From a virus, in the IMG/VR virus record IMGVR_UViG_3300025138_000032, positions 5,688-69,687 of that record: a DNA stretch of 64,000 bases. One strand, given 5' to 3'. The notes under the pieces were generated by a model, which ran no database searches, was not told the origin of the DNA, and saw only the letters and a list, made by a program, of their open reading frames with translations. Both the position numbers and the translations under genes were made by a program. Of this stretch, positions 2 to 9,416 are shown piece by piece. The first letter of the stretch is position 1. Each line of letters starts with the position of its first letter.

Positions 2-2161
2 AATGAAAGAGTAGATGACAGAGTTAATGCATTACTAGTTGCCGGAACAGGCATTACATCTACATACGATGATGCCGCTGGAACACTTACACTTAACGGA
101 CAAGTTGGTGATGTAACAAGTGTTGTCGCTGGAACTGGTCTAACAGGTGGTGGAACAAGTGGTGATGTAACAGTAAATGTTGTTGGTGGTACAGGTATAA
201 TCGCAAATGCGAATGATATCGCAATCGATACTTCTGTAACAGTAGATTTAACTACTAGTCAAACACTTTCAGGCAAAACACTAACATCTCCAATCTTAAA
301 TACTGCTCTATCTGGTACTGCATTCTTAGACGAAGACGACTTCTCAAGTAATGCGAATGATAAAGTTGCATCTCAACAATCTATTAAAACATATGTTGAT
401 GCATCTGTTGCCGCTAAAGACAATACAGACGAAATCACTGAAGGTTCATCAAATCTATACTTCACAAATGAAAGAGTAGACGATAGAGTAGATGCTCTAC
501 TAACTTCTGGTGTCAATGTCGCTATGACATATGACGATGCAAATGGAAGTTTAGAGATTAGAGTACCTTTTGAGAATATACAAGATACAGTTGGTACTCA
601 GATTGCAACCAATGGTTCACATACAGGTCTTACTGCAACATATGATGATGCTGGTGACGGCGCTATAGACCTTGCAGTATCAACATCACATGTTAGGGGT
701 TTAATATCTGCTGGTGGTGACTTATCATACAACAGTACAACTGGTGTAATGAGTTTCACAAACGATGCTGGAGATATTTCTTCAGTAGTTGCTGGAACTG
801 GTACAACAGGTGGTGGAACTGCTGGCGATGTAACAATTAATGTTATTGGTGGCGATGGTATTACTGCAAACGCAAACGATATCGCATTATCATCTTCAGT
901 CGCTGGTGATGGTCTTGCATTCTCAAGTGGTATTCTTGCAGTAAATGTAGATGATTCATCAATCGAAACAAGTTCAGACACATTACAAGTAAAAGCAAGT
1001 GGTGTCACAAATGCCATGCTGGCAGGGTCAATCGGTGCAGATAAACTTGCAGGTTCAATAGGGAACGCAAAACTATCTAACTCATCAATTACAATAGACG
1101 GAAGTGCTGTTTCATTGGGTGGTTCAATAACTACTACAAATACACAACTTACACAAGAACAAGTCGAAGACTTTGTTGGTGGTATGTTAGATGGTACCGA
1201 AACAGGTATCTCTGTATCATACGATGATACAAATGGTAATCTTGACTTTGTTATTGGCGCTGACGACATTACTAACGATATGTTGGCAGGGTCAATTAAT
1301 CAATCCAAACTTGCAGGTTCAATTGCAAACGCAAAACTTGCTAATAGTACGATAACAATTGATGGACAATCAGTTGCATTGGGTGGTTCAGTCACAACAA
1401 CTAACACTCAATTATCAACAGAGAATGTACAAGATATCGCTGGGGCGATGTTCTCAAGTAATACTGAAAGTGGTATTACTGCAACATATCAAGATGCAGA
1501 TGGTACAATCGATTTAGATGTTAATGACCCAACAATATCCTTGACAGGCGATGTGACAGGTTCTGCTACAATGACCAATTTAGGTAATGTTAGTATCTCT
1601 ACTACAGTCGCTGCTAACTCAGTCGCACTTGGAACAGATACAACAGGTAACTATGTCGCAGGTGTAAGTGCAGGAACTGGTGTCTCAGTAAGTGGTTCTG
1701 GAGAAGGCGCAACTTCAACAGTAAGTATTGGACAGGCAGTTTCAACATCAAGTAATGTTCAATTTGCAAACTTAGTGTTATCAGGCAACTTGACAGTTAA
1801 TGGTGCAACATCAACAGTTAGTTCAACTAACACAACAATCGAAGATGCATTGATAGAATTAGGGACAGGTACTTCTGGTACGCCTTCTAACGATGCAGGT
1901 TTTGTTATTGAAAGAGGAAGTTCTGACAATGTATTCATTGGTTGGGACGAGAGTGCAGATGCGATAACATTTGGTACTGGTAGTTTTACTGGTGCATCTA
2001 CAGGTAATTTAAGTATTACACCAAGTGCAGTTAATACAGGCGCCTTGACGATTACTAATGCTAGTAACTCAGGCGGAACTGCGAGAAACATATATCAGTC
2101 AACATCAGCTCCAGGCGGAAGTGATGGCGCAGTTGGCGATTTATGGGTTCTCTACTCTTAA
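2..2161 (+). CDS. Long tail-fibre/adhesin-like structural protein (5' end outside the window)
   Basis: The frame of ORF 524..2161 is open back to base 2. It is G/S/T/A/D-rich with internal repeats (NERVDDRV; TITIDGxxVxLGGSxTTTNTQL twice; YDD motifs) and ends in a typical fibre tip, SAPGGSDGAVGDLW. Confidence 0.75.
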   Translation, partial: NERVDDRVNALLVAGTGITSTYDDAAGTLTLNGQVGDVTSVVAGTGLTGGGTSGDVTVNVVGGTGIIANANDIAIDTSVTVDLTTSQTLSGKTLTSPILNTALSGTAFLDEDDFSSNANDKVASQQSIKTYVDASVAAKDNTDEITEGSSNLYFTNERVDDRVDALLTSGVNVAMTYDDANGSLEIRVPFENIQDTVGTQIATNGSHTGLTATYDDAGDGAIDLAVSTSHVRGLISAGGDLSYNSTTGVMSFTNDAGDISSVVAGTGTTGGGTAGDVTINVIGGDGITANANDIALSSSVAGDGLAFSSGILAVNVDDSSIETSSDTLQVKASGVTNAMLAGSIGADKLAGSIGNAKLSNSSITIDGSAVSLGGSITTTNTQLTQEQVEDFVGGMLDGTETGISVSYDDTNGNLDFVIGADDITNDMLAGSINQSKLAGSIANAKLANSTITIDGQSVALGGSVTTTNTQLSTENVQDIAGAMFSSNTESGITATYQDADGTIDLDVNDPTISLTGDVTGSATMTNLGNVSISTTVAANSVALGTDTTGNYVAGVSAGTGVSVSGSGEGATSTVSIGQAVSTSSNVQFANLVLSGNLTVNGATSTVSSTNTTIEDALIELGTGTSGTPSNDAGFVIERGSSDNVFIGWDESADAITFGTGSFTGASTGNLSITPSAVNTGALTITNASNSGGTARNIYQSTSAPGGSDGAVGDLWVLYS

Positions 2162-2188: not shown

Positions 2189-4255
2189 ATGGCGACAGGT
2201 TCACAAAAGGTCAAAACACCAACAGGTTGGAATTCTACAAGAGGTGCATGGGTAAAAACTGCATCTGGTACTTGGAAAGATGCAGAACAAATCTATGTCA
2301 AGACTCCAACAGGTTGGAATAACGCTTCAGGACAGGCAAGTGTCCAACAACCTTATCCGTACATTGCTAACGCTCAAGAACCCAATATAAGAAATAAACA
2401 AAACCCTTATCCTTATATTGCTAACGCTCAACAACCGAATATAAGAAATGCACAACAACCGTATCCTTATATCGCAAACAATCAAGAGCCTAATATTAGA
2501 GATGCAAGACAACCTGCGATTTATCAAAATCCAGTAAGCGCACAAGAACCTAATATTAGAAGTCAACAAGAACCTAATATTAGAAGTCAACAAGAACCTA
2601 ATATTAGACCGGCGAGACAACCTTCTACATATCAACATAGAAGTCCGTCAACATATAGAGACCCTAGAACATATCAACATCCGACTACCTATCAGCATAG
2701 AAGTCCTTTGACTTATCAACATAGAAGTCCATTGACTTATCAGCATAGAAGTCCGTTGACATATCAACATAGGTCTCCTTCTACTTATCAACATAGAGAA
2801 CCGAACACTTATAACCATAGGTCACCTTATAGAAGTCCGTTTACTTACAATCATAGAAGTCCTTTGACATATCAGCATAGGTCGCCATTTACATATCGTA
2901 ATCCGTTTACCTATAATCATAGAAGTCCGTTGATTTATCAACATAGGTCTCCTTATAGAAGTCCGTCCACTTATCAACATAGAGAACCGAACACTTATAA
3001 CCATAGGTCACCTTATAGAAGTCCGTCCACTTATCAACATAGAGAACCGAACACTTATAACCATAGGTCGCCATTTACATATCGTAATCCGTTTACCTAT
3101 AATCATAGAAGTCCGTTGATTTATAACCATAGGTCGCCACTTACATATGACCATAGGTCGCCATTTACATATCGTAATCCGTTTACCTATCAACATAGAA
3201 GTCCTTTAACATATAATCATAGAAGTCCGTTGATTTATCAGCATAGGTCGCCATTTACATATCGTAATCCGTTTACCTATAATCATAGAAGTCCGTTGAT
3301 TTATCAGCATAGAAGTCCGTTGACATATCAGCATCAAAGTCCTTCGACATATCAGCTTCCGTTTACATATCGTAATCCGTTTACATATAACCATAGGTCG
3401 CCATTTACATATCGTAATCCGTTTACCTATCGTAATCCGTTTACATATAACCATAGGTCGCCTTCTACATATAACCATAGGTCGCCTTCTACATATAACC
3501 ATAGGTCGCCATTTGGATATCAGCTTCCGTTTACCTATCGTAATCCGTTTACATATAACAACAGACAACCGTTTACTTACAATCATAGAGAACCGTATAC
3601 TGTTAATGCAAGACAACCATTTACATATAATGCTCGTACTGGAGTTAATGTTCAGACTGCATCACAACAACCAAGTAGTTACTCATTCCGTAACCCAATC
3701 ACTTTCCCACCAGGTGGTGGCGGAGGCGGCGGCGGAGGTTGCTTTGCTCCAGGTTCAATGATATGGCTTGCAGATGGAAGTCATTCGCCTATCGAGTCAT
3801 GTGTTCTTGGTCAATATGTAATGACTTGGAACGAAAGTACAAAACTTCTAGAACCTAGAGAGATATCTCTAATCATGAAACCAAGAATGTGTCCTATATT
3901 TGATGTTACATTCTCAGATGGAAGAATATTACAAATGACTGATACTCACCCATTAATGTTACCAAATGGCCAATGGGGTGCATTTGATGTTGAGAAATCA
4001 ATTAGAGAACATGAATGGATGCAAGATATTGAAACGCATGAACTTACAGTTGGCGATAGTGTCTTTAGTATGTTAGATGGTATAATGTTTGACAGACAAG
4101 ACGAAATGGGCTTAGAAATAGTATCTATAGAAGAACATTCTGAAATGGAAGTACATAACTTAAGTGGAGTTTATGAAAACAATAACTTCTTTGTTAATGG
4201 AATGCTCGCTCATAACTTTGGTAATCAGAGTCAGAATACCCAGGCGAAGAACTAA
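2189..4255 (+). CDS. Repeat fibre protein A: VKTxxGW N-terminal motifs, short QEPNIR tract, long TYxHRSP tract, Gly9 linker, C-terminal Hint domain
   Basis: Repeats are visible in the translation. The Hint domain starts CFAPGSMIWLADG, has TDTHPL (block B) and ends VHNL...FFVNGMLAHN. Confidence 0.85.
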   Translation: MATGSQKVKTPTGWNSTRGAWVKTASGTWKDAEQIYVKTPTGWNNASGQASVQQPYPYIANAQEPNIRNKQNPYPYIANAQQPNIRNAQQPYPYIANNQEPNIRDARQPAIYQNPVSAQEPNIRSQQEPNIRSQQEPNIRPARQPSTYQHRSPSTYRDPRTYQHPTTYQHRSPLTYQHRSPLTYQHRSPLTYQHRSPSTYQHREPNTYNHRSPYRSPFTYNHRSPLTYQHRSPFTYRNPFTYNHRSPLIYQHRSPYRSPSTYQHREPNTYNHRSPYRSPSTYQHREPNTYNHRSPFTYRNPFTYNHRSPLIYNHRSPLTYDHRSPFTYRNPFTYQHRSPLTYNHRSPLIYQHRSPFTYRNPFTYNHRSPLIYQHRSPLTYQHQSPSTYQLPFTYRNPFTYNHRSPFTYRNPFTYRNPFTYNHRSPSTYNHRSPSTYNHRSPFGYQLPFTYRNPFTYNNRQPFTYNHREPYTVNARQPFTYNARTGVNVQTASQQPSSYSFRNPITFPPGGGGGGGGGCFAPGSMIWLADGSHSPIESCVLGQYVMTWNESTKLLEPREISLIMKPRMCPIFDVTFSDGRILQMTDTHPLMLPNGQWGAFDVEKSIREHEWMQDIETHELTVGDSVFSMLDGIMFDRQDEMGLEIVSIEEHSEMEVHNLSGVYENNNFFVNGMLAHNFGNQSQNTQAKN
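2354..3643 (+). repeat. Coding tandem repeat tract A: 58 units of 4/6/8/10 aa (1290 nt)
   Basis: Mostly Pro-terminated units such as NIRSQQEP, LTYQHRSP, FTYRNP and YRSP. Confidence 0.95.
3740..4216 (+). other. Hint (intein-like/BIL-type) autoprocessing domain within protein A
   Basis: Cys1 follows poly-Gly; TxxH motif; terminal His-Asn followed by Phe rather than C/S/T; no endonuclease insert. Confidence 0.85.
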
Positions 4256-4303
4256 AATGATAATACTAACAAACAAAAATATGATAGTAAGGGGTAATAT
4301 CTA

Positions 4304-5722
4304 ATGCCACAACAACCGGTAATAGCAAACGCTCAGACGACTGTTAGGTCTCCAAGCATAGGACAACAACCTTATATTGCTAATGGTCAAACACCATTTA
4401 TTCAACCTACGCAGGGTCCTGCTATAAGAAACGGCCAGACGCCGTATATTGCGAATGGGCAGTCACCTAGTAATGCAAGAAGTCCGAGAAACGCACAGCA
4501 ACCTAATATTAGAAATAATCAAGAACCTAATATTAGAAATAATCAAGAACCTAACATTAGAAGTGCCCAATCACCTAGTAATGCACAATCACCTAGTAAC
4601 GCACAAGAACCTAACATTAGAAGTGCCCAGTCACCTAGTAATGCAAGAAGTCCAAGAAACGCACAAGAACCTAACATTAGAAGTCAACAAGAACCTAACA
4701 GTAGAAGTCAACAAGAACCTAATATTAGGAATGCTCAGTCACCTAGTAATGCACAACAACCTAATAGTAGAAGTCAACAAGAACCTAATATTAGAAACCA
4801 ACAAGAACCTAACATTAGAGATGCTCAGTCACCTAGTAGCGCACAGCAACCTAACATTAGAAGTCAACAACAACCTAATATTAGAAGTCAACAAGAACCT
4901 AATATTAGAGATGCTCAGTCGCCTAGTAATGCACAAGAACCTAATATAAGAAGTTATCAGTCTCCTTATATTGCTAACGCACAAACATCAGCACAAGAAC
5001 CTAATATAAGAAATTATCAGTCTCCTTATATTGCGAATAGACAAAATACAGCACAACAACCTAATAGTAGAAGTCAACAAGAACCTAATATTAGAAATGC
5101 TCAGTCACCTAGTAATGCACAAGAACCTAACATTAGAAGTCAACAAGAACCTAATATTCGTTCAGCACAAGCATCAGCACAAGAACCAAACATAAGAAGT
5201 TATCAGTCTCCTTATATTGCGAATGCTCAGAATCCTTTTATTAGAAATCAACAAGAACCTAATATTAGAAATCAACAAGAACCTAACATTAGAAATCAAC
5301 AAGAACCTAATATAAGAAACAAACAGACTACTTCTAATTATCAGAATCCTGTAAATGCTCAGAATCCATTTATTAGAAATAGACAGACACCATTTACATA
5401 TGACCATAGAAGTCCGTTGACATATGACCATAGGTCACCATTGATTTATAATCATAGAAGTCCGTTTACTTACAGGCATCCTGGAAATAGTCAGACTCCG
5501 TTTACCTATCAACATAGAAGTCCTTCAACATATGCTAGACAAGGTCAAACACCTTTCACATATCAACATAGAAGTCCTTCGACATATGCTAGACAAGGTC
5601 AGACGCCAACAACCTATCAACATAGAAGTCCTTCGACATATGCTAGACAAGGACAAACACCTGTTATCCGTTGGGATGGTGTTCTATCGCAGACCTGGCC
5701 AGGCACTCCTATATCGTCATAA
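4304..5722 (+). CDS. Repeat fibre protein B: long QEPNIR/AQSP tract followed by a short TYxHRSP tract
   Basis: Translation; SD-like AAGGGG upstream; same repeat vocabulary as protein A. Confidence 0.85.
   Translation: MPQQPVIANAQTTVRSPSIGQQPYIANGQTPFIQPTQGPAIRNGQTPYIANGQSPSNARSPRNAQQPNIRNNQEPNIRNNQEPNIRSAQSPSNAQSPSNAQEPNIRSAQSPSNARSPRNAQEPNIRSQQEPNSRSQQEPNIRNAQSPSNAQQPNSRSQQEPNIRNQQEPNIRDAQSPSSAQQPNIRSQQQPNIRSQQEPNIRDAQSPSNAQEPNIRSYQSPYIANAQTSAQEPNIRNYQSPYIANRQNTAQQPNSRSQQEPNIRNAQSPSNAQEPNIRSQQEPNIRSAQASAQEPNIRSYQSPYIANAQNPFIRNQQEPNIRNQQEPNIRNQQEPNIRNKQTTSNYQNPVNAQNPFIRNRQTPFTYDHRSPLTYDHRSPLIYNHRSPFTYRHPGNSQTPFTYQHRSPSTYARQGQTPFTYQHRSPSTYARQGQTPTTYQHRSPSTYARQGQTPVIRWDGVLSQTWPGTPISS
4373..5662 (+). 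repeat. Coding tandem repeat tract B: 58 units (1290 nt), mirror of tract A in unit lengths
   Basis: Units such as NIRSQQEP, SNAQEP, AQEP and STYARQGQTP. Confidence 0.95.
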
Positions 5723-5749: not shown

Positions 5750-7297
5750 ATGAGTATCAAAAGCAAATCATTCGAGCATACAAAGGAATTACTCCAAGGA
5801 CTCGACCCAACAGATAAGAGTTTTCATCTACAGTTGGGTCAGTTCGATGTTCTAAAAGAATACAAAGAAACAGACACATACAAATCATTAAAGTATGTTA
5901 CAGAGAATCACACCGGAAAACTAAAACAAGTTAAATGGGGTGACATGACTAAACTAATCAAGGAAGAGAAATTTCTTGGTTGGAATAAACTACAGTCCCA
6001 TGCATGGGCATATCATTACTTTCTACCCCACGGATATACTGCACCGGAAGAAACTCCAGTACCAGGAATTTCGGGAATGGATTTTAAAAATTCTAACAAT
6101 GAATATCAAAAGTTAGAAGACTTCACTGATAAAAAACTAAATGACCAACAGAATAACAGTATCAATTCTGTATATTATCATGGCGCCAAGGCTCATTGGT
6201 TAGTAGATAGTATCAGAGAAGAGGGTCTATGGAATGCTATTCAAGGCACTGTAAGTTTAGCAGGAAAAAATAAAGATGGAGAACAGATGTATCAGTTATC
6301 AATACATCCAGGTTCAGTTCGTTCTGGTGTATTTGAAACAATGGATGACCCAAATTTAGATTTATGGATATGGGACAATCATGATGCTATACCTTTACCA
6401 GAGACATCTATAGATGAAATGATTGATGAGATGAAAGGGCAACTTATAGAACGAGATGCAGAACACTATTCAATATCTTTTGGATATACTCGTGGTTACT
6501 TAGAGATACATAGTGACTTATTGAAGATGAACTTCAGAGGAAGTGTAACCGATTATAACATGAAAGTTAACCAATTGTCAAAGGGTAAACATCTAAACAT
6601 ATACATTGGTTACGATTCTAGACATACTGATATCGCTGAGTTAAGTGCAAAATGTGTTAAAAGTAGTATATTATCTGGTGCCGGCAGAGGCGATGTGCAT
6701 GATGTATTAGGAGATTGGACTCCTGAGATAAAGTTTCTTGACATATCAAAGATTCCAGAGTATAATAGAGAGTATGCAGCTCAATCAACAGAGTTCACAT
6801 ATAGTAGATTCTTAATTCCTTACTTGGAAAACTATGAAGGATTTAGTATTTTTATTGATGATGATATACTATTCAATGAAAGTATCTTACCAATGTTCTA
6901 CTACTTAGACTTAGACGATGCAGTTGCATGTGTACAGTATGACTTTGATAGTTATGCTGAAACAAAATTTAACGGTGAAAAGAATGTATCTTATCCTAAA
7001 AAACTTTGGTCTTCTTTGATGATATTTAATAATGGTCATGAAGACTGTAAGAAACTTACACCAGAAGTTGTTAATACTGAAAGTGGTAAGTATCTACATC
7101 AATTTGAATGGACAGATAAGATATCAGAGATACCAGAGTGGTATGTTATAACAGAAGGACACGATACAGTAGAAGATAAGTGGCGTGCTTGTGCTATACA
7201 TTACACACGAGGCGGTCCTTGGATTGAAGATATGGATATCTCTCAGATAGAACACCTAAATATGTATGAAAGATTAAAAAATAAACATCAAAACTAA
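5750..7297 (+). CDS. Fusion: ParB/Srx-like N-terminal domain plus GT-A (GT8-like) glycosyltransferase
   Basis: C-terminal half has IYIGYDSR, QSTEFTYSRFLIP, DDD, WSSLMIFN and HYTRGGPW, typical of phage GT8-like proteins. N-terminal half has LVDSIREEG...HPGSVR, loosely ParB-like. Confidence 0.7.
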   Translation: MSIKSKSFEHTKELLQGLDPTDKSFHLQLGQFDVLKEYKETDTYKSLKYVTENHTGKLKQVKWGDMTKLIKEEKFLGWNKLQSHAWAYHYFLPHGYTAPEETPVPGISGMDFKNSNNEYQKLEDFTDKKLNDQQNNSINSVYYHGAKAHWLVDSIREEGLWNAIQGTVSLAGKNKDGEQMYQLSIHPGSVRSGVFETMDDPNLDLWIWDNHDAIPLPETSIDEMIDEMKGQLIERDAEHYSISFGYTRGYLEIHSDLLKMNFRGSVTDYNMKVNQLSKGKHLNIYIGYDSRHTDIAELSAKCVKSSILSGAGRGDVHDVLGDWTPEIKFLDISKIPEYNREYAAQSTEFTYSRFLIPYLENYEGFSIFIDDDILFNESILPMFYYLDLDDAVACVQYDFDSYAETKFNGEKNVSYPKKLWSSLMIFNNGHEDCKKLTPEVVNTESGKYLHQFEWTDKISEIPEWYVITEGHDTVEDKWRACAIHYTRGGPWIEDMDISQIEHLNMYERLKNKHQN

Positions 7298-7311
7298 ATT
7301 ATGGAGTTATT

Positions 7312-7863
7312 ATGAATATGTTAATTTATTGTGAGAATGGTCATCTTACTATCAGAAAACCAAATGGCCTAGAGTGGAGACACGAGAATGTCGACAAACC
7401 AGAATTAGGATTTGACTATGATGTTTTAATCTATGATGATATCGAAGTTAAGATTATGGAGTGGAAAGACGATGTTCAGTTTGATGACCAAGTTAAAGTT
7501 TCGCTTACAGATGTAGAGTCAGATGCAATTGAGAATTACATTGATAATTCTACACCACCTAATGATGTAACATTAGCAAATCAATACAGTCAACAAATCA
7601 ATAATGTTTGTAAAGACTATGTAGAACAACAAATAGAATCTTATGGATTTGAAAGTTTAATAGATACCATGGCAGCTGCCAGAGATGGTTCGAATCACCC
7701 TTTAAGGTCAGATGCAAGAAGAGCTTTAGAATACTATGATGTAATGTGGAATATTTACATCAATGTAATGAATGAAGTCAAGGCAACTAGAGAAGACTTA
7801 CTGCCAGATGTTGAAGAGTTTATTAATAGATTTCCTCAACCACAACAAGCATTGATTGAATAG
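7312..7863 (+). CDS. Putative tail-fibre assembly/chaperone-like protein
   Basis: C-terminal segment YGFESLIDTMAAA...RRALEYYDVMW resembles fibre-assembly proteins; lies next to fibre genes. Confidence 0.45.
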   Translation: MNMLIYCENGHLTIRKPNGLEWRHENVDKPELGFDYDVLIYDDIEVKIMEWKDDVQFDDQVKVSLTDVESDAIENYIDNSTPPNDVTLANQYSQQINNVCKDYVEQQIESYGFESLIDTMAAARDGSNHPLRSDARRALEYYDVMWNIYINVMNEVKATREDLLPDVEEFINRFPQPQQALIE

Positions 7864-8611
7864 TAGTATGTCTAAGTTTAACTTAGAAATAGTCAAGATA
7901 GATAAACCCTTTGCTATAAAAGACATGCCTATGGGAAATAAAATCTATGTAATTGATGACTATCTTGAAACATCAACACATCATTGGATGAATAATAGTG
8001 TTACTCGAGGACCTAGATGGTGTAAATCAAATCAAGTAAACGCTCAACATCCTACAGGTTTGCCACATCATTCCCTTTGGGGAGCATCTTTCTTTAAGAC
8101 AGATAGTAATGGCGCACCAATGATGGAAAAGGGCGAGAATGATTGGACAACTGAAGCCGCTAGATGGTTTAATAGAAAAATATGTACAGATTTTCTATTC
8201 AAATGGAAAAGATTTCAATACATGGGTACTAATTCTCAAACTCATGGCCAACACGGAACAACTCACTCAGATTGTGCAGAAGAAGATGATTGGAACTTAT
8301 CGTTTCTATATTATTATAACACATTCTGGAATCCTGCATGGGGTGGTGATTTAAGATTCTATGAACCCGATGTTTATCAAGCAGGTTTAGACGGTAGAGA
8401 TGAACACATAGAAAAACATTCAATAGGCAGTGTCGAGTTTAAACCAAACAGACTATTGATGTTTGACGGAAGAATACCTCATGGTGCAGATGCACCAACT
8501 TCTAGAGCCAGATATGCAGATAGATGTTCTATAGTACTTAGAGGCGATGAGATAGAACTTATTGAAAAGGAAGAATTATATAATGCCAACGATAGATTTC
8601 ACTACATTTAA
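7856..8611 (+). CDS. 2OG-Fe(II) oxygenase, prolyl-hydroxylase-like
   Basis: HSD (HxD), WGGDLRF, PNRLLMFDGRIPH and a distal Arg. Confidence 0.8.
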   Translation: MNSSMSKFNLEIVKIDKPFAIKDMPMGNKIYVIDDYLETSTHHWMNNSVTRGPRWCKSNQVNAQHPTGLPHHSLWGASFFKTDSNGAPMMEKGENDWTTEAARWFNRKICTDFLFKWKRFQYMGTNSQTHGQHGTTHSDCAEEDDWNLSFLYYYNTFWNPAWGGDLRFYEPDVYQAGLDGRDEHIEKHSIGSVEFKPNRLLMFDGRIPHGADAPTSRARYADRCSIVLRGDEIELIEKEELYNANDRFHYI

Positions 8612-9416
8612 CGAAGAGAGTCTTAGAGACTTTAAACCAGTTTTAGCTAAATCTCTAGCACCCGAATGGTTTAAAAAGATGAAAGTCTTTCAACACGATA
8701 GGGGTAAGAGAATGCAAACTATTCGTGCTTGCCCTGCTATGGATGACTGGTTAAAATCTGGTTGGTTGATTCTTGCAAATAGAGACATGGAAGTTAATGT
8801 AGATGGTCCTTTTACATATACAAAAGATACTGAATTAGGCAAACAAGGCACGGCATCTCCTTCTCACCCATCAGCTCAGTTTGGTTATGCATTTAGTTAT
8901 CTAGGTGAAGAAGGTCCAATCAAAGATGCATTTAAAATGAGAAGTGCCTGGAACATAATAACACCCAAAGGATACTCATGTTTTTACTTAGACCCATTTC
9001 TATTTCAAAACAATCACTTTGCTACATGGCAAGGTGTTATAGATACAGATGACTTTAATGTCAATCAAGACAATTCACAAATTATTTTTTATCCTAAAGT
9101 TAATCATTCGTTTATTATACCAAAAGGAACTCCTTTAGTTCAAATCATACCGTTCAAAAGAGAAGAGTGGGTGGCGACATATCAATTAAAAGATGAGAAG
9201 GCCTGGCACAACGACAGAGGCGAAAACAGACATCAAGATATGCCTGGAATGGATGAAATAAATAGAACTAAGTACAATAAACTTCAAGATGAGAATCCAA
9301 ATCATATGGGTGCTTACAGAACTGAGGGTCATTGGAAAAGTAAAGGTAAAAACTTTAAAGAAATGGAACCACCACCAGAGTGTCCGTTTCATAAAGGAGA
9401 TGTAGATGGCGATTAA
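8583..9416 (+). CDS. Conserved phage protein, DUF6065-like beta-barrel family
   Basis: TIRACPAMDD...GW, TPKGYSCF, GVIDTD and IPKGTPLVQIIPFKR motifs; likely start at MPTIDF. Confidence 0.6.
   Translation: MPTIDFTTFNEESLRDFKPVLAKSLAPEWFKKMKVFQHDRGKRMQTIRACPAMDDWLKSGWLILANRDMEVNVDGPFTYTKDTELGKQGTASPSHPSAQFGYAFSYLGEEGPIKDAFKMRSAWNIITPKGYSCFYLDPFLFQNNHFATWQGVIDTDDFNVNQDNSQIIFYPKVNHSFIIPKGTPLVQIIPFKREEWVATYQLKDEKAWHNDRGENRHQDMPGMDEINRTKYNKLQDENPNHMGAYRTEGHWKSKGKNFKEMEPPPECPFHKGDVDGD

What the first reader, a model, noticed from the sequence alone, without database searches (positions are those of the whole stretch)
2354..5662. Residue-level pairing code between the mirrored units
Seen in sequence, using the mirror alignment: residue 1 of each HRSP-type 8-mer predicts residue 5 of its partner. 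F faces A or G in 13/13 cases (10 A, 3 G), L faces Q in 13/13, N faces Y in 3/3 and T faces K in 2/2; S is variable. Also STYQHREP faces YIANxQ in 3/3, LIYQHRSP faces NSRSQQEP in 3/3, xxYQLP faces RNAQxP in 2/2, YRSP faces AQxP in 3/3, and YPYIANxQxP faces STYARQGQTP in 3/3. The F, L and T rules still hold in the short segment where A and B swap roles. Inference: large/small steric complementarity across strands gives a sequence-programmable protein duplex, which could be useful for protein design.
Basis: partly seen in the sequence, partly recalled or inferred. Interest (0 to 1): 0.88.

Follow-up and report, generated by a model that had tools for sequence, protein, structure and literature searches.

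The report
Mirror-coded two-protein phage fibre duplex
Two neighbouring genes of an uncultured marine T4-like phage encode repeat proteins that match residue by residue when one is read backwards, following pairing rules that related phages keep through matched changes, which suggests a two-chain protein "duplex" not described so far.

Summary
Observation confirmed. ORF A (2189-4255) and ORF B (4304-5722) align without any gap in one antiparallel register, A[i] facing B[506-i], over about 430 residues.

The code is not a block-duplication artefact:
- It survives collapsing duplicates.
- It recurs in 40 other distinct IMG/VR gene pairs: F faces A/G 428 of 478, L faces Q 116 of 126.
- A pair matrix learned from distant loci picks the true register in the window.
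- Close relatives differ by mirrored indels of equal length and by paired substitutions such as LQ>FA and LQ>YI (odds ratio 13).

DNA complementarity is only 28-39%, so the coupling acts on protein. Pro-to-Pro spacing is even in 3465 of 3471 cases, and covariation lies mainly among odd-numbered positions. Both suggest beta-type pairing.

Simple large/small sterics explains F-A/G only. N-Y is a local rule of this clade. Physical binding is untested.

I found no paper on this. The scan has flagged the same family before, in at least 27 other genomes.

The parts
2189..4255 (+). ORF A (688 aa), the first chain of the pair: conserved head, repeat array, Gly turn and Hint domain.
   Evidence: Conserved as an ORF with an invariant N-terminus in 14 aligned homologues. 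dN/dS against the closest relative is 0.26.
2189..2353 (+). Conserved non-repeat head of A (aa 1-55). B's last residue faces A aa 34.
   Evidence: Invariant columns. B's end faces aa 34 of the first chain in 28 of 40 loci and aa 35-36 in 6 more. Weak strands only in the AlphaFold2 model.
2354..2623 (+). A aa 56-145: short segment of N-type units (YPYIANxQxP, NIRxxQxP). It faces the T-type tail of B.
2624..3703 (+). A aa 146-505: long array of T-type units (xTYxHRSP, FTYRNP, YRSP). It faces the N-type array of B.
3704..3739 (+). A aa 506-517: the turn (FPP plus nine Gly), lying beyond the residue that faces B Met1.
   Evidence: the homologous tail is 5-15 residues and Gly-rich in most loci, ending at a stop codon or at Hint Cys1. 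Two DNA runs carry 6 extra bases in the Gly run.
3740..4216 (+). A aa 518-676: Hint (intein-like, type-A BIL-like) domain, Cys518 to His675-Asn676, followed by Phe at +1.
   Evidence: Pfam Intein_splicing, E 1.3e-5, below its cut-off. Model pLDDT 75-91. Foldseek matches to mini-inteins, BIL and Hedgehog domains, TM by target up to 0.86. Invariant residues.
4256..4303 (.). 48-nt spacer between the stop codon of A and the start codon of B.
4304..5722 (+). ORF B (472 aa), the second chain of the pair.
   Evidence: 335 unnamed relatives at E <= 1e-10. dN/dS is 0.27.
4373..5392 (+). B aa 24-363: long array of N-type units (NIRxxQxP, SNAQxP, YIANxQxP).
5393..5662 (+). B aa 364-453: short segment of T-type units (xTYxHRSP, STYARQGQTP), where the unit roles swap.
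5663..5719 (+). B aa 454-472: conserved C-terminal tail that faces A aa 34-52.

Best explanation
A and B are the two chains of one long antiparallel protein duplex, probably the shaft of a virion fibre.

Proposed layout (inferred):
- The chains lie side by side over their whole repeat regions, A34-505 against B472-1.
- The conserved A head and B tail sit at one end. A short Gly-rich turn, where the end of A meets the start of B, sits at the other.
- Every T-type unit (xTYxHRSP) lies opposite an N-type unit (NIRxxQxP), whichever chain carries it.
- Within a unit pair the facing residues are T1-N5, T2-N4, T3-N3 (Tyr-Arg), T4-N2, T5-N1 (His-Asn), T6-N8 (Arg-Pro), T7-N7 and T8-N6 (Pro-Gln).

The variable T1-N5 pair, with T5-N1/N3 and T7-N7, forms a specificity code: F with A or G, L with Q, D with R, Y with I or A, T with K, Q or R, and S permissive.

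I read the irregular order of unit lengths and pair types as an address. It would allow only one register and so fix the length and flush ends of the duplex.

All unit lengths are even. This fits a beta-type two-residue alternation that keeps every Pro in the same kind of site, which I infer to be the non-hydrogen-bonded one.

Shown here: the mirror, the code, its conservation, and its maintenance by compensating changes. Inferred: physical contact, the beta conformation, the fibre role, and self-removal of the Hint domain at Gly517/Cys518.
For: 1. One gap-free antiparallel register, far beyond chance. In 41 of 41 distinct loci the best antiparallel proline register beats the best parallel one. 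A-with-A and B-with-B mirrors stay at background, 35 of 75 and 30 of 61 prolines against 55 for A with B.

2. Length coupling. Second-chain lengths range from 247 to 563 aa, yet both ends stay flush. Against the closest relative (L013), indels of 10 and 20 aa in the first chain are matched by 10- and 20-aa indels at the mirrored places in the second. Against L001, 14, 12 and 4 aa are matched likewise.

3. Residue coupling.
- Across 943 T-unit/partner pairs, F faces A/G 428 of 478, L faces Q 116 of 126, and D faces R 8 of 8.
- In 12 disjoint genome comparisons restricted to the T1/N5 site class: both changed 39, T1 only 16, N5 only 26, neither 140 (odds ratio 13, p 6.5e-14).

4. Transferability. 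Log-odds learned from 19 distant loci score the window's true register at 1.46 bits per residue, against 0.09 for the best other register (z 7.5).

5. Not a nucleic-acid effect.
- DNA of the first gene against the reverse complement of the second is 28-39% identical in the mirror register. Watson-Crick plus G-U pairing would be 37-48%.
- F-A codons (TTT/GCA) are not complementary.
- L-Q persists through synonymous change: TTG/CAA 43 and TTA/CAA 25 of 78.

6. Beta-type signature.
- Pro-to-Pro spacing is even in 3465 of 3471 cases in 75 proteins.
- T1 covaries with the partner residue directly opposite (0.87 bit) and two steps away (0.66), but only weakly one step away (0.16-0.21).
- The very variable T4 (entropy 1.94 bits) covaries with nothing (at most 0.14).

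7. Both frames are under purifying selection, dN/dS 0.09-0.27.

8. Context. The pair sits next to a fibre-like structural gene (phrog_697), upstream of terminase, sheath, portal and capsid genes.
Against: No experiment or structure shows that the chains touch.

Exceptions to the single register:
- Three of the 40 homologue loci need two registers, meaning unmatched indels of 44, 44 and 18 residues (L043, L048, L076).
- L014 loses register near the start of its second chain, and L075 has two equally good registers.
- So the coupling is not absolute, or some assemblies are wrong.

The arrays break into short pieces in short-read assemblies of public runs, so details of individual arrays may contain assembly errors.

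The code is degenerate. S is permissive and T has three partners. It predicts 26 of 37 window pairs.

Several partner positions are invariant, so the period-2 covariation pattern rests on few informative positions. One odd-shift value is not small (T7 with the next N4, 0.33 bit).

A bare two-stranded ribbon 430 residues long would be unusual. A higher-order bundle may be needed, and none is shown. No virion proteome places A or B in the particle.
Confidence: 0.7

Rival explanations
1. Relic of an inverted duplication. B descends from the in-frame antisense strand of A (or the reverse). The mirror and the 'code' would then be inherited history, with no present contact between the proteins.
For: The protein mirror register is also the best DNA reverse-complement diagonal in the window (39.5% over 1335 nt). 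It is the best of 81 in-frame registers in 33 of 41 loci. At unit level it gives 9.1 of 24 complementary bases, against 4.2-7.3 in the other 23 cyclic phases. Several pairs are codon/anticodon pairs: L-Q (TTG/CAA), F-K (TTT/AAA, 8 of 8), Y-I (TAT/ATA), S-R (TCT/AGA), R-P (AGG/CCT, 2.15 of 3) and N-I.
Against: History alone cannot explain the mirrored indels of equal length between relatives about 88% identical. Nor can it explain paired substitutions at facing sites or flush ends across a two-fold length range. Repeat blocks within an array are nearly identical in DNA, while the two genes are only 28-39% complementary. So the blocks were duplicated long after any inversion, and in both genes. 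The dominant pair F-A is not an antisense pair. An antisense origin may still be true as the starting point, about 0.3 in my estimate. It does not replace present coupling.
Confidence: 0.07
2. The two proteins do not touch each other. Both line up on a third partner with two-fold (dyad) symmetry, for example the two strands of a nucleic acid or an antiparallel filament. The mirror and the code would then come from reading complementary features of that partner.
For: Mirror order with complementary unit types is what two readers of opposite strands would show. Nothing distinguishes direct from indirect coupling.
Against: There are many more than four pair classes, and they are degenerate. Only about one strongly variable residue pair occurs per 8 residues. 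No nucleic-acid-binding family was detected. Covariation peaks at the directly facing residue and at the one two steps away, as side-chain neighbours would. The ends are flush and a Gly turn is present.
Confidence: 0.1
3. The chains do pair, but only unit against unit (T-type against N-type, with matched lengths). The residue-level rules (F-A, L-Q and so on) would be hitch-hikers of recent block duplications and carry no specificity.
For: The window's arrays contain obvious duplicated blocks. For example [STYQHREP NTYNHRSP YRSP] and [FTYRNP FTYNHRSP LIYQHRSP] occur several times with near-identical DNA. In 16 of 39 loci the collapsed T1/N5 mutual information does not reach p < 0.01 on its own.
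Against: The rules survive collapsing duplicates. They hold in clades at most about 50% identical to the window. They are restored by double substitutions at orthologous sites in 12 disjoint comparisons.
Confidence: 0.08
4. The constraint is a long-range hairpin in the DNA or mRNA between the two coding regions. The protein pattern would be a by-product.
For: The layout is hairpin-like: array, 0.6-kb Hint 'loop', array. There are 20-nt inverted repeats 75-80% complementary.
Against: In the mirror register, Watson-Crick pairing would be 28-39%, or 37-48% with G-U. That is too little for a helix. Synonymous change occurs within conserved amino-acid pairs.
Confidence: 0.02

Closest known systems
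Stalk of streptococcal antigen I/II adhesins (SpaP, BspA)
   Same: A long fibrillar stalk (over 50 nm) made of two different repeat regions running antiparallel and interlocking repeat against repeat. One region is Pro-rich, and a binding part sits at the far turn (passages of PMC7732690 read).
   Different: There, both regions lie in one polypeptide, and the partner of the Pro-rich region is an Ala-rich heptad region. Here there are two genes, both chains are Pro-punctuated with even-length units, each chain carries both unit types, and a residue-level pairing code co-varies between the genes. No sequence relation was found.
Needle domain of the T4 long tail fibre tip, gp37
   Same: [quoted passage not shown] From my own recall, each chain runs out and back. 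Three A-B duplexes would give the same strand count and topology.
   Different: In gp37 the out and back strands belong to the same chain of a homotrimer. There is no sequence similarity and no family hit here. Trimer formation is not shown here.
Heterodimeric coiled-coil zippers (Fos/Jun type; my own knowledge)
   Same: Two chains with short sequence repeats. A few positions per repeat form a pairing code that sets partner, orientation and register.
   Different: Those are alpha-helical heptads. The present units have Pro every 4-8 residues and even lengths, which is not compatible with a helix.
Sense-antisense ('complementary') peptide hypothesis, reviewed as the 'Proteomic Code' (PMC2206014; seen only as a search listing and abstract start)
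   Same: The pairing register equals the in-frame antisense register. L-Q, F-K, Y-I, S-R, R-P and N-I are codon/anticodon pairs.
   Different: The commonest pair F-A/G, and D-R, T-K and S-N, are not. Present DNA complementarity is only 28-39%.
Type-A bacterial intein-like (BIL) domains
   Same: Cys1, C-terminal His-Asn and no +1 nucleophile (Phe). PMC4031507 (passages read) says such domains form an N-terminal thioester, cleave by Asn cyclisation and mostly yield cleavage products. The fold matches inteins, BIL and Hedgehog domains.
   Different: This concerns only the accessory domain at the turn. It is absent from 23 of 40 homologous loci, which end with a similar Gly-rich tail. Activity was not tested.

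Membership tests
Hint / type-A BIL domain (A aa 518-676 only) | N-terminal Cys (or Ser) nucleophile directly after the upstream segment | tested here: met
   G517-C518-F519 are invariant in 14 aligned homologues.
Hint / type-A BIL domain (A aa 518-676 only) | Block B Thr-x-x-His, and a C-terminal His-Asn with no +1 nucleophile | tested here: met
   T584 is nearly invariant. H587, H675 and N676 are invariant. Residue +1 is Phe. The definition is taken from PMC4031507.
Hint / type-A BIL domain (A aa 518-676 only) | Hint fold | tested here: met
   Model pLDDT 75-91 over 516-678. Foldseek: 4o1r at E 1.8e-9 with TM by target 0.82, BIL2 (6tmm) 0.79, C. thermocellum BIL (2lwy) 0.82, Hedgehog (1at0) 0.70.
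Hint / type-A BIL domain (A aa 518-676 only) | Pfam Intein_splicing gathering score | tested here: not met
   25.4 bits against a cut-off of 35.8.
Hint / type-A BIL domain (A aa 518-676 only) | Autoprocessing activity | not testable with these tools
   Needs expression and mass spectrometry.
Coiled-coil zipper | Heptad periodicity in a helix-compatible sequence | tested here: not met
   Pro-to-Pro spacings are 8 (1915), 6 (1045), 2, 10 and 4; none is 7-based.
Collagen-like triple helix | Gly at every third residue | tested here: not met
   The units are xTYxHRSP and NIRxxQxP. Gly is rare outside the turn.
Known phage fibre repeat families (gp5 C-terminal beta-helix, gp37 and the like) | Match to a curated family or to a solved chain | tested here: not met
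   No Pfam or PHROG family matches the repeat parts. No PDB sequence match for B at E <= 1. Atlas rows for gp5 and gp37 score 0.80-0.81, below the level that counts.
Antigen I/II-type stalk | Ala-rich heptad region and Pro-rich region in one polypeptide, flanking a globular domain | tested here: not met
   There are two separate ORFs, no Ala-rich region, and no fused form among longer proteins (weak evidence).
Sense/antisense gene pair (one gene the in-frame reverse complement of the other) | DNA of B complementary to DNA of A in the pairing register | tested here: inconclusive
   28-39% identity. It is the best of 81 registers in 33 of 41 loci and the best of 24 unit phases. This is compatible with an old relic but not proof.

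The most novel reading that the evidence does not exclude
A natural protein analogue of nucleic-acid base pairing. Two complementary unit classes (T and N) plus a residue sub-code (F:A/G, L:Q, D:R, Y:I and others) would let two separately encoded chains find a single antiparallel register over more than 400 residues. The pair would evolve like an RNA helix, by compensating substitutions and matched indels. The pair may have been born from the two strands of one repeat, since the pairing register is the in-frame antisense register. That would make it the first natural test case for the old sense-antisense peptide complementarity idea, and a template for designing addressable beta-type heterodimers.
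Probability: 0.3. Interest if true: 0.95.

Novelty: categorically new. Interest (0 to 1): 0.86.

Why it matters
If the two chains really zip together, this would be a new way to build a long protein fibre. Two genes would encode complementary "strands" whose irregular series of units sets register and length. The specificity could be read directly from sequence.

- For protein design, it would offer a natural, highly diversified library of orthogonal antiparallel pairing modules: hundreds of variants in marine viromes.
- For evolution, it gives a protein-protein interface where compensatory change can be counted site by site, as in RNA stems.
- It may also give a datable case of a gene pair derived from opposite DNA strands.
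- For phage biology, the pair lies among fibre-like and sugar-modifying genes. Such a region is called the hypervariable host-recognition cluster in pelagimyophages (PMC7029224, passages read). I did not map the window's pair onto that cluster's boundaries.

Tried and rejected
1. Complex prediction. A 1-200 against B 306-472, each with a 14-row alignment, returned 'no answer': the score was under the mark and the controls were not run. This is neither for nor against binding.

2. Single-chain AlphaFold2.
- B alone had mean pLDDT 36 and no secondary structure.
- In A the repeat part had pLDDT about 25-29; only the Hint domain folded.
- This says nothing about the duplex.

3. Sequence and family searches.
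- PDB sequence search found nothing for B. For A it matched only the Hint part.
- Pfam and PHROGs found nothing for the repeat parts.
- All ESM Atlas feature scores were 0.84 or below, so they are leads only.

4. Phage record collection.
- Megablast of the locus and of its flank found no match.
- tblastn of B gave only a low-complexity hit in a mycobacteriophage.
- tblastn of the Hint part matched helicase inteins of Vibrio phages.

5. Search for a fused A-B protein among longer proteins found none (the tool calls this weak evidence).

6. Public runs.
- Contigs of two DNA runs and two metatranscriptome runs cover pieces of both genes at 99% identity or more.
- The arrays are fragmented in those contigs, and the joints listed lie inside repeats.
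- Contigs cannot show transcription, so I claim neither expression nor independent confirmation of the full array order.

7. Ideas considered and dropped.
- An RNA or DNA hairpin, because pairing would be too low.
- Repeated symmetric inversions, because these would leave antisense-type units and high complementarity, and neither is seen.
- Read-through joining A to B, because the two ORFs are in different frames in L022 (coordinates).
- Adenine-directed, retroelement-like copying, because the mismatches seen by eye are not A-specific.

8. Literature. Searches returned no paper on a mirrored repeat-protein pair. The passages of PMC7029224 that I read do not mention it, and its supplementary files could not be opened. 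'Aromatic rescue of glycine' in beta sheets is recalled from memory; the phrase occurs in none of the 8 papers listed.

Full report
WHAT IS THERE

The window comes from a 69,687-base virus record estimated 38% complete. It belongs to a T4-like marine myovirus, with terminase, tail sheath, portal, scaffold, major head protein and T4-type replication genes.

At its left end lie two co-oriented ORFs. A is 2189-4255 (688 aa) and B is 4304-5722 (472 aa). Cutting after each Pro gives units of 8, 6 and 4 residues, of two types:
- T-type: xTYxHRSP, with the short forms FTYRNP and YRSP.
- N-type: NIRxxQxP, with the short form SNAQxP and the variant YIANxQxP.

A runs: conserved head (aa 1-55), short N-type segment (56-145), long T-type array (146-505), FPP plus nine Gly, then a Hint domain starting at Cys518. 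B runs: long N-type array (24-363), short T-type segment (364-453), conserved tail.

CHECK OF THE OBSERVATION

A read forwards and B read backwards align with no gap: A[i] faces B[506-i].
- 53 of 55 B prolines coincide with A prolines in that one register. Shuffling the order of B units gives at most 31 in 2000 trials.
Mutual information between T1 and N5 is 1.93 of 2.15 bits, with 0 of 10000 permutations reaching it. After collapsing duplicate unit pairs it is 1.74 bits, again 0 of 10000.
- The eight FTYRNP 6-mers also all face Ala.

IS IT MORE THAN BLOCK DUPLICATION, AND IS IT IN HOMOLOGUES?

A scan of IMG/VR found 188 related stretches. Eighty were kept, and they gave 40 further distinct pairs of adjacent repeat ORFs.

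Mirror in homologues:
- In 41 of 41 loci the best antiparallel proline register beats the best parallel one. Typically one register holds 85-95% of the second chain's prolines, for example 61 of 65 in L022 and 64 of 69 in L025.
- In homologues the two unit types alternate many times within one chain, and the partner always carries the opposite type.
- Of 943 T-type 8-mers, 869 face an N-type 8-mer by a strict pattern.
- Self-mirrors are at background.

Pair table over all loci:
- F faces A/G 428 of 478.
- L faces Q 116 of 126.
- D faces R 8 of 8.
- Y faces I 16 and A 13 of 34.
- T faces Q 18, K 16 and R 10.
- S is permissive (A 88, N 42, R 28).
- G faces N 8 and F 6 of 15.
- N-Y is only 6 of 24, so it is a local rule.

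A facing-pair log-odds matrix was learned from 19 distant loci. It scores the window's true register at 1.46 bits per residue, against 0.09 for the next best (z 7.5). Its commonest-partner rule predicts 26 of 37 window pairs, including all F-A and L-Q pairs.

CO-EVOLUTION

Against the closest relative (L013, about 88% identical), the two array indels in the first chain (10 and 20 aa) are matched by 10- and 20-aa indels at the mirrored places of the second. All 440 facing pairs aligned in both genomes still face each other. L001 shows the same for 14, 12 and 4 aa.

Double substitutions at facing sites number 19, against 6.1 expected. Both facing sites are hypervariable, so I restricted the test to the T1/N5 class in 12 disjoint genome comparisons. 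The result: both changed 39, T1 only 16, N5 only 26, neither 140 (odds ratio 13, p 6.5e-14).
- The doubles move between allowed pairs: LQ>FA, LQ>YI, SN>FA, DR>FA, YI>FA.
- The singles stay within an allowed set: FA>FG, TK>TR, TQ>LQ, SA>SR.

Both ends of the mirror stay flush, although second-chain lengths range from 247 to 563 aa.
- B's last residue faces aa 34 of the first chain in 28 of 40 loci and aa 35-36 in 6 more.
- In most loci the tail of the first chain, beyond the residue facing Met1 of the second, is 5-15 Gly-rich residues.
- That tail ends either at a stop codon or at Cys1 of a Hint domain.

Exceptions:
- L043, L048 and L076 carry an unmatched indel of 44, 44 and 18 residues.
- L014 loses register near the start of its second chain.
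- L075 has two equal registers.
- In L072 the first chain is split into two ORFs.

NOT A NUCLEIC-ACID EFFECT, BUT PERHAPS A NUCLEIC-ACID ORIGIN

In the mirror register the DNA of the first gene is only 28-39% identical to the reverse complement of the second. Counting G-U pairs, pairing would be 37-48%. This is too little for recombination, gene conversion or a hairpin to couple the arrays.

Repeat blocks within one array are nearly identical in DNA. They are therefore far younger than any inversion, yet they occur at mirrored places in both genes.

Still, the mirror register is also the best antisense register.
- It is the best of 81 in-frame registers in 33 of 41 loci.
- It is the best of 24 cyclic unit phases: 9.1 of 24 bases against 4.2-7.3.
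- Several pairs are codon/anticodon pairs: L-Q, F-K, Y-I, S-R, R-P and N-I. The dominant F-A (TTT/GCA) is not.
- L-Q persists through synonymous change.

I read this as a possible relic of an origin by inverted duplication of a repeat that was open on both strands (about 0.3). It is not the present cause of the code.

HOW IT MOST LIKELY WORKS

Pro-to-Pro spacing is even in 3465 of 3471 cases in 75 proteins. Covariation is concentrated among odd-numbered positions of both unit types:
- T1 with the directly facing N5 gives 0.87 bit, and with N7 two steps away 0.66. With the neighbours one step away it gives 0.16-0.21.
- T5 gives 0.53, 0.44 and 0.40 at even shifts, and about 0.01-0.02 at the adjacent odd shifts.
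- The very variable even position T4 (entropy 1.94 bits) is coupled to nothing.

The pattern is not perfectly clean. T7 with the next N4 gives 0.33 bit, and several partner sites are invariant and so uninformative.

Together these results fit an extended, beta-type antiparallel pairing. One face (x1-x5, Tyr3-Arg3, His5-Asn1, Ser7-Glu7) carries the specificity, and all prolines fall in equivalent sites, which I infer to be the non-hydrogen-bonded ones.

The canonical pairs Tyr3-Arg3 and His5-Asn1 are replaced together by Tyr3-Ala3 and Arg5-Tyr1 in the YIANxQxP/STYARQGQTP unit pair. This is a relocated Tyr-Arg contact.

Sterics alone does not explain the code. Pair volumes span 174-360 cubic angstroms, and the correlation by pair type is not significant.

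I propose that the aperiodic series of unit lengths and pair types acts as an address that permits only one register and hence a defined length. Whether the duplex stands alone or bundles is open. One possibility is three duplexes giving six strands, as in the gp37 needle (PMC7291167 passage).

THE TURN

The Hint domain is genuine. Cys1, T-x-x-H and the terminal His-Asn are conserved, the model is confident, and the fold matches mini-inteins, BIL domains and Hedgehog.

With Phe at +1 it fits the type-A BIL description, in which cleavage products dominate (PMC4031507). It is present in 17 of 40 homologous loci: 15 by pattern, plus L046 and L054 by eye. Loci without Hint end with a similar Gly-rich tail. 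So the domain most likely just removes itself. Ligation of the Gly thioester to another amine is possible but untested.

CONTEXT AND STATUS

- Both ORFs are under purifying selection (dN/dS 0.09-0.27).
- Relatives are numerous and unnamed: 335 proteins at E <= 1e-10.
- Near-identical DNA occurs in 14 marine DNA runs of 9 coded studies. Pieces occur in metatranscriptome libraries, which does not prove transcription.
- Neighbours are a fibre-like structural gene upstream, and downstream a GT8-like glycosyltransferase and a 2OG-Fe(II) oxygenase.

COMPARISON WITH WHAT IS KNOWN

It works most like the antigen I/II stalk (PMC7732690) and like coiled-coil zippers in logic. Its topology is perhaps that of the gp37 needle. 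It meets the defining features of none of these families (see Membership tests).

I found no description of it in print.

The scan itself has met this family before. Forty-one notes in at least 27 genomes describe mirrored pairs, and earlier follow-ups reached a similar reading. This agreement is not independent evidence.

New in this report:
- The class-restricted compensatory-change test.
- The cross-clade transfer of the code.
- The even-spacing rule and the odd-position covariation pattern.
- The codon-level dissection of the code, and the negative test of simple steric complementarity.

VERDICT

The coupling between the two proteins is real and acts at protein level. Physical pairing is the best explanation (0.7) but is not demonstrated.

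Noticed in passing
window 3704-3739: The length of the Gly run at the turn is polymorphic. Contigs of two DNA runs from different coded studies carry 6 extra bases (two more Gly codons) behind 3730. Homologues have 5-9 Gly.
   Followed up: partly
window 5750-9416: Directly downstream lie a GT8-like glycosyltransferase (5750-7297), a 2OG-Fe(II) oxygenase (7856-8611) and a phrog_7084 protein (8562-9416). A homologue of the last lies about 4.3-4.8 kb downstream of the start of the second-chain ORF in L070, L072 and L075. These are possible modifying enzymes for the Pro/Ser/Thr-rich repeats.
   Followed up: partly
window 2-2161: The upstream ORF, open at the window start, is a different repeat-rich fibre-like structural protein (phrog_697, 'structural protein').
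   Followed up: no
window 2327-2638(-), 3206-3616(-), 4449-4949(+), 5174-5431(-): Long open frames on the opposite strand and in other frames run through the arrays. They are a by-product of the repeats. They show that the antisense strand of such arrays stays open, which is a precondition for an antisense origin.
   Followed up: partly
L043, L048, L076 (also L014, L075): These are natural exceptions to the single mirror register: unmatched indels of 44, 44 and 18 residues in one chain only. In that clade 44 residues is a higher-order repeat length. They may be real uncompensated intermediates or collapsed assemblies.
   Followed up: partly
L060 (same contig as L013, about 10 kb away): A further ORF of 378 aa built almost only of N-type units (18 N-type motifs, 3 T-type). 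No mirrored partner was seen in the locus.
   Followed up: no
L072 4737-6480: The first chain is split into two ORFs (286 and 294 aa). The second piece still mirrors the start of the second chain (31 of 38 prolines). This is a frameshift or a sequencing error.
   Followed up: partly
window 3740-4216: Among the best fold matches of the Hint domain is the BIL2 domain of the Tetrahymena BUBL1 locus (6tmm, 6y75). From memory, such domains hand a C-terminal Gly to another protein. That would be relevant to what happens at the Gly-rich end of A.
   Followed up: no
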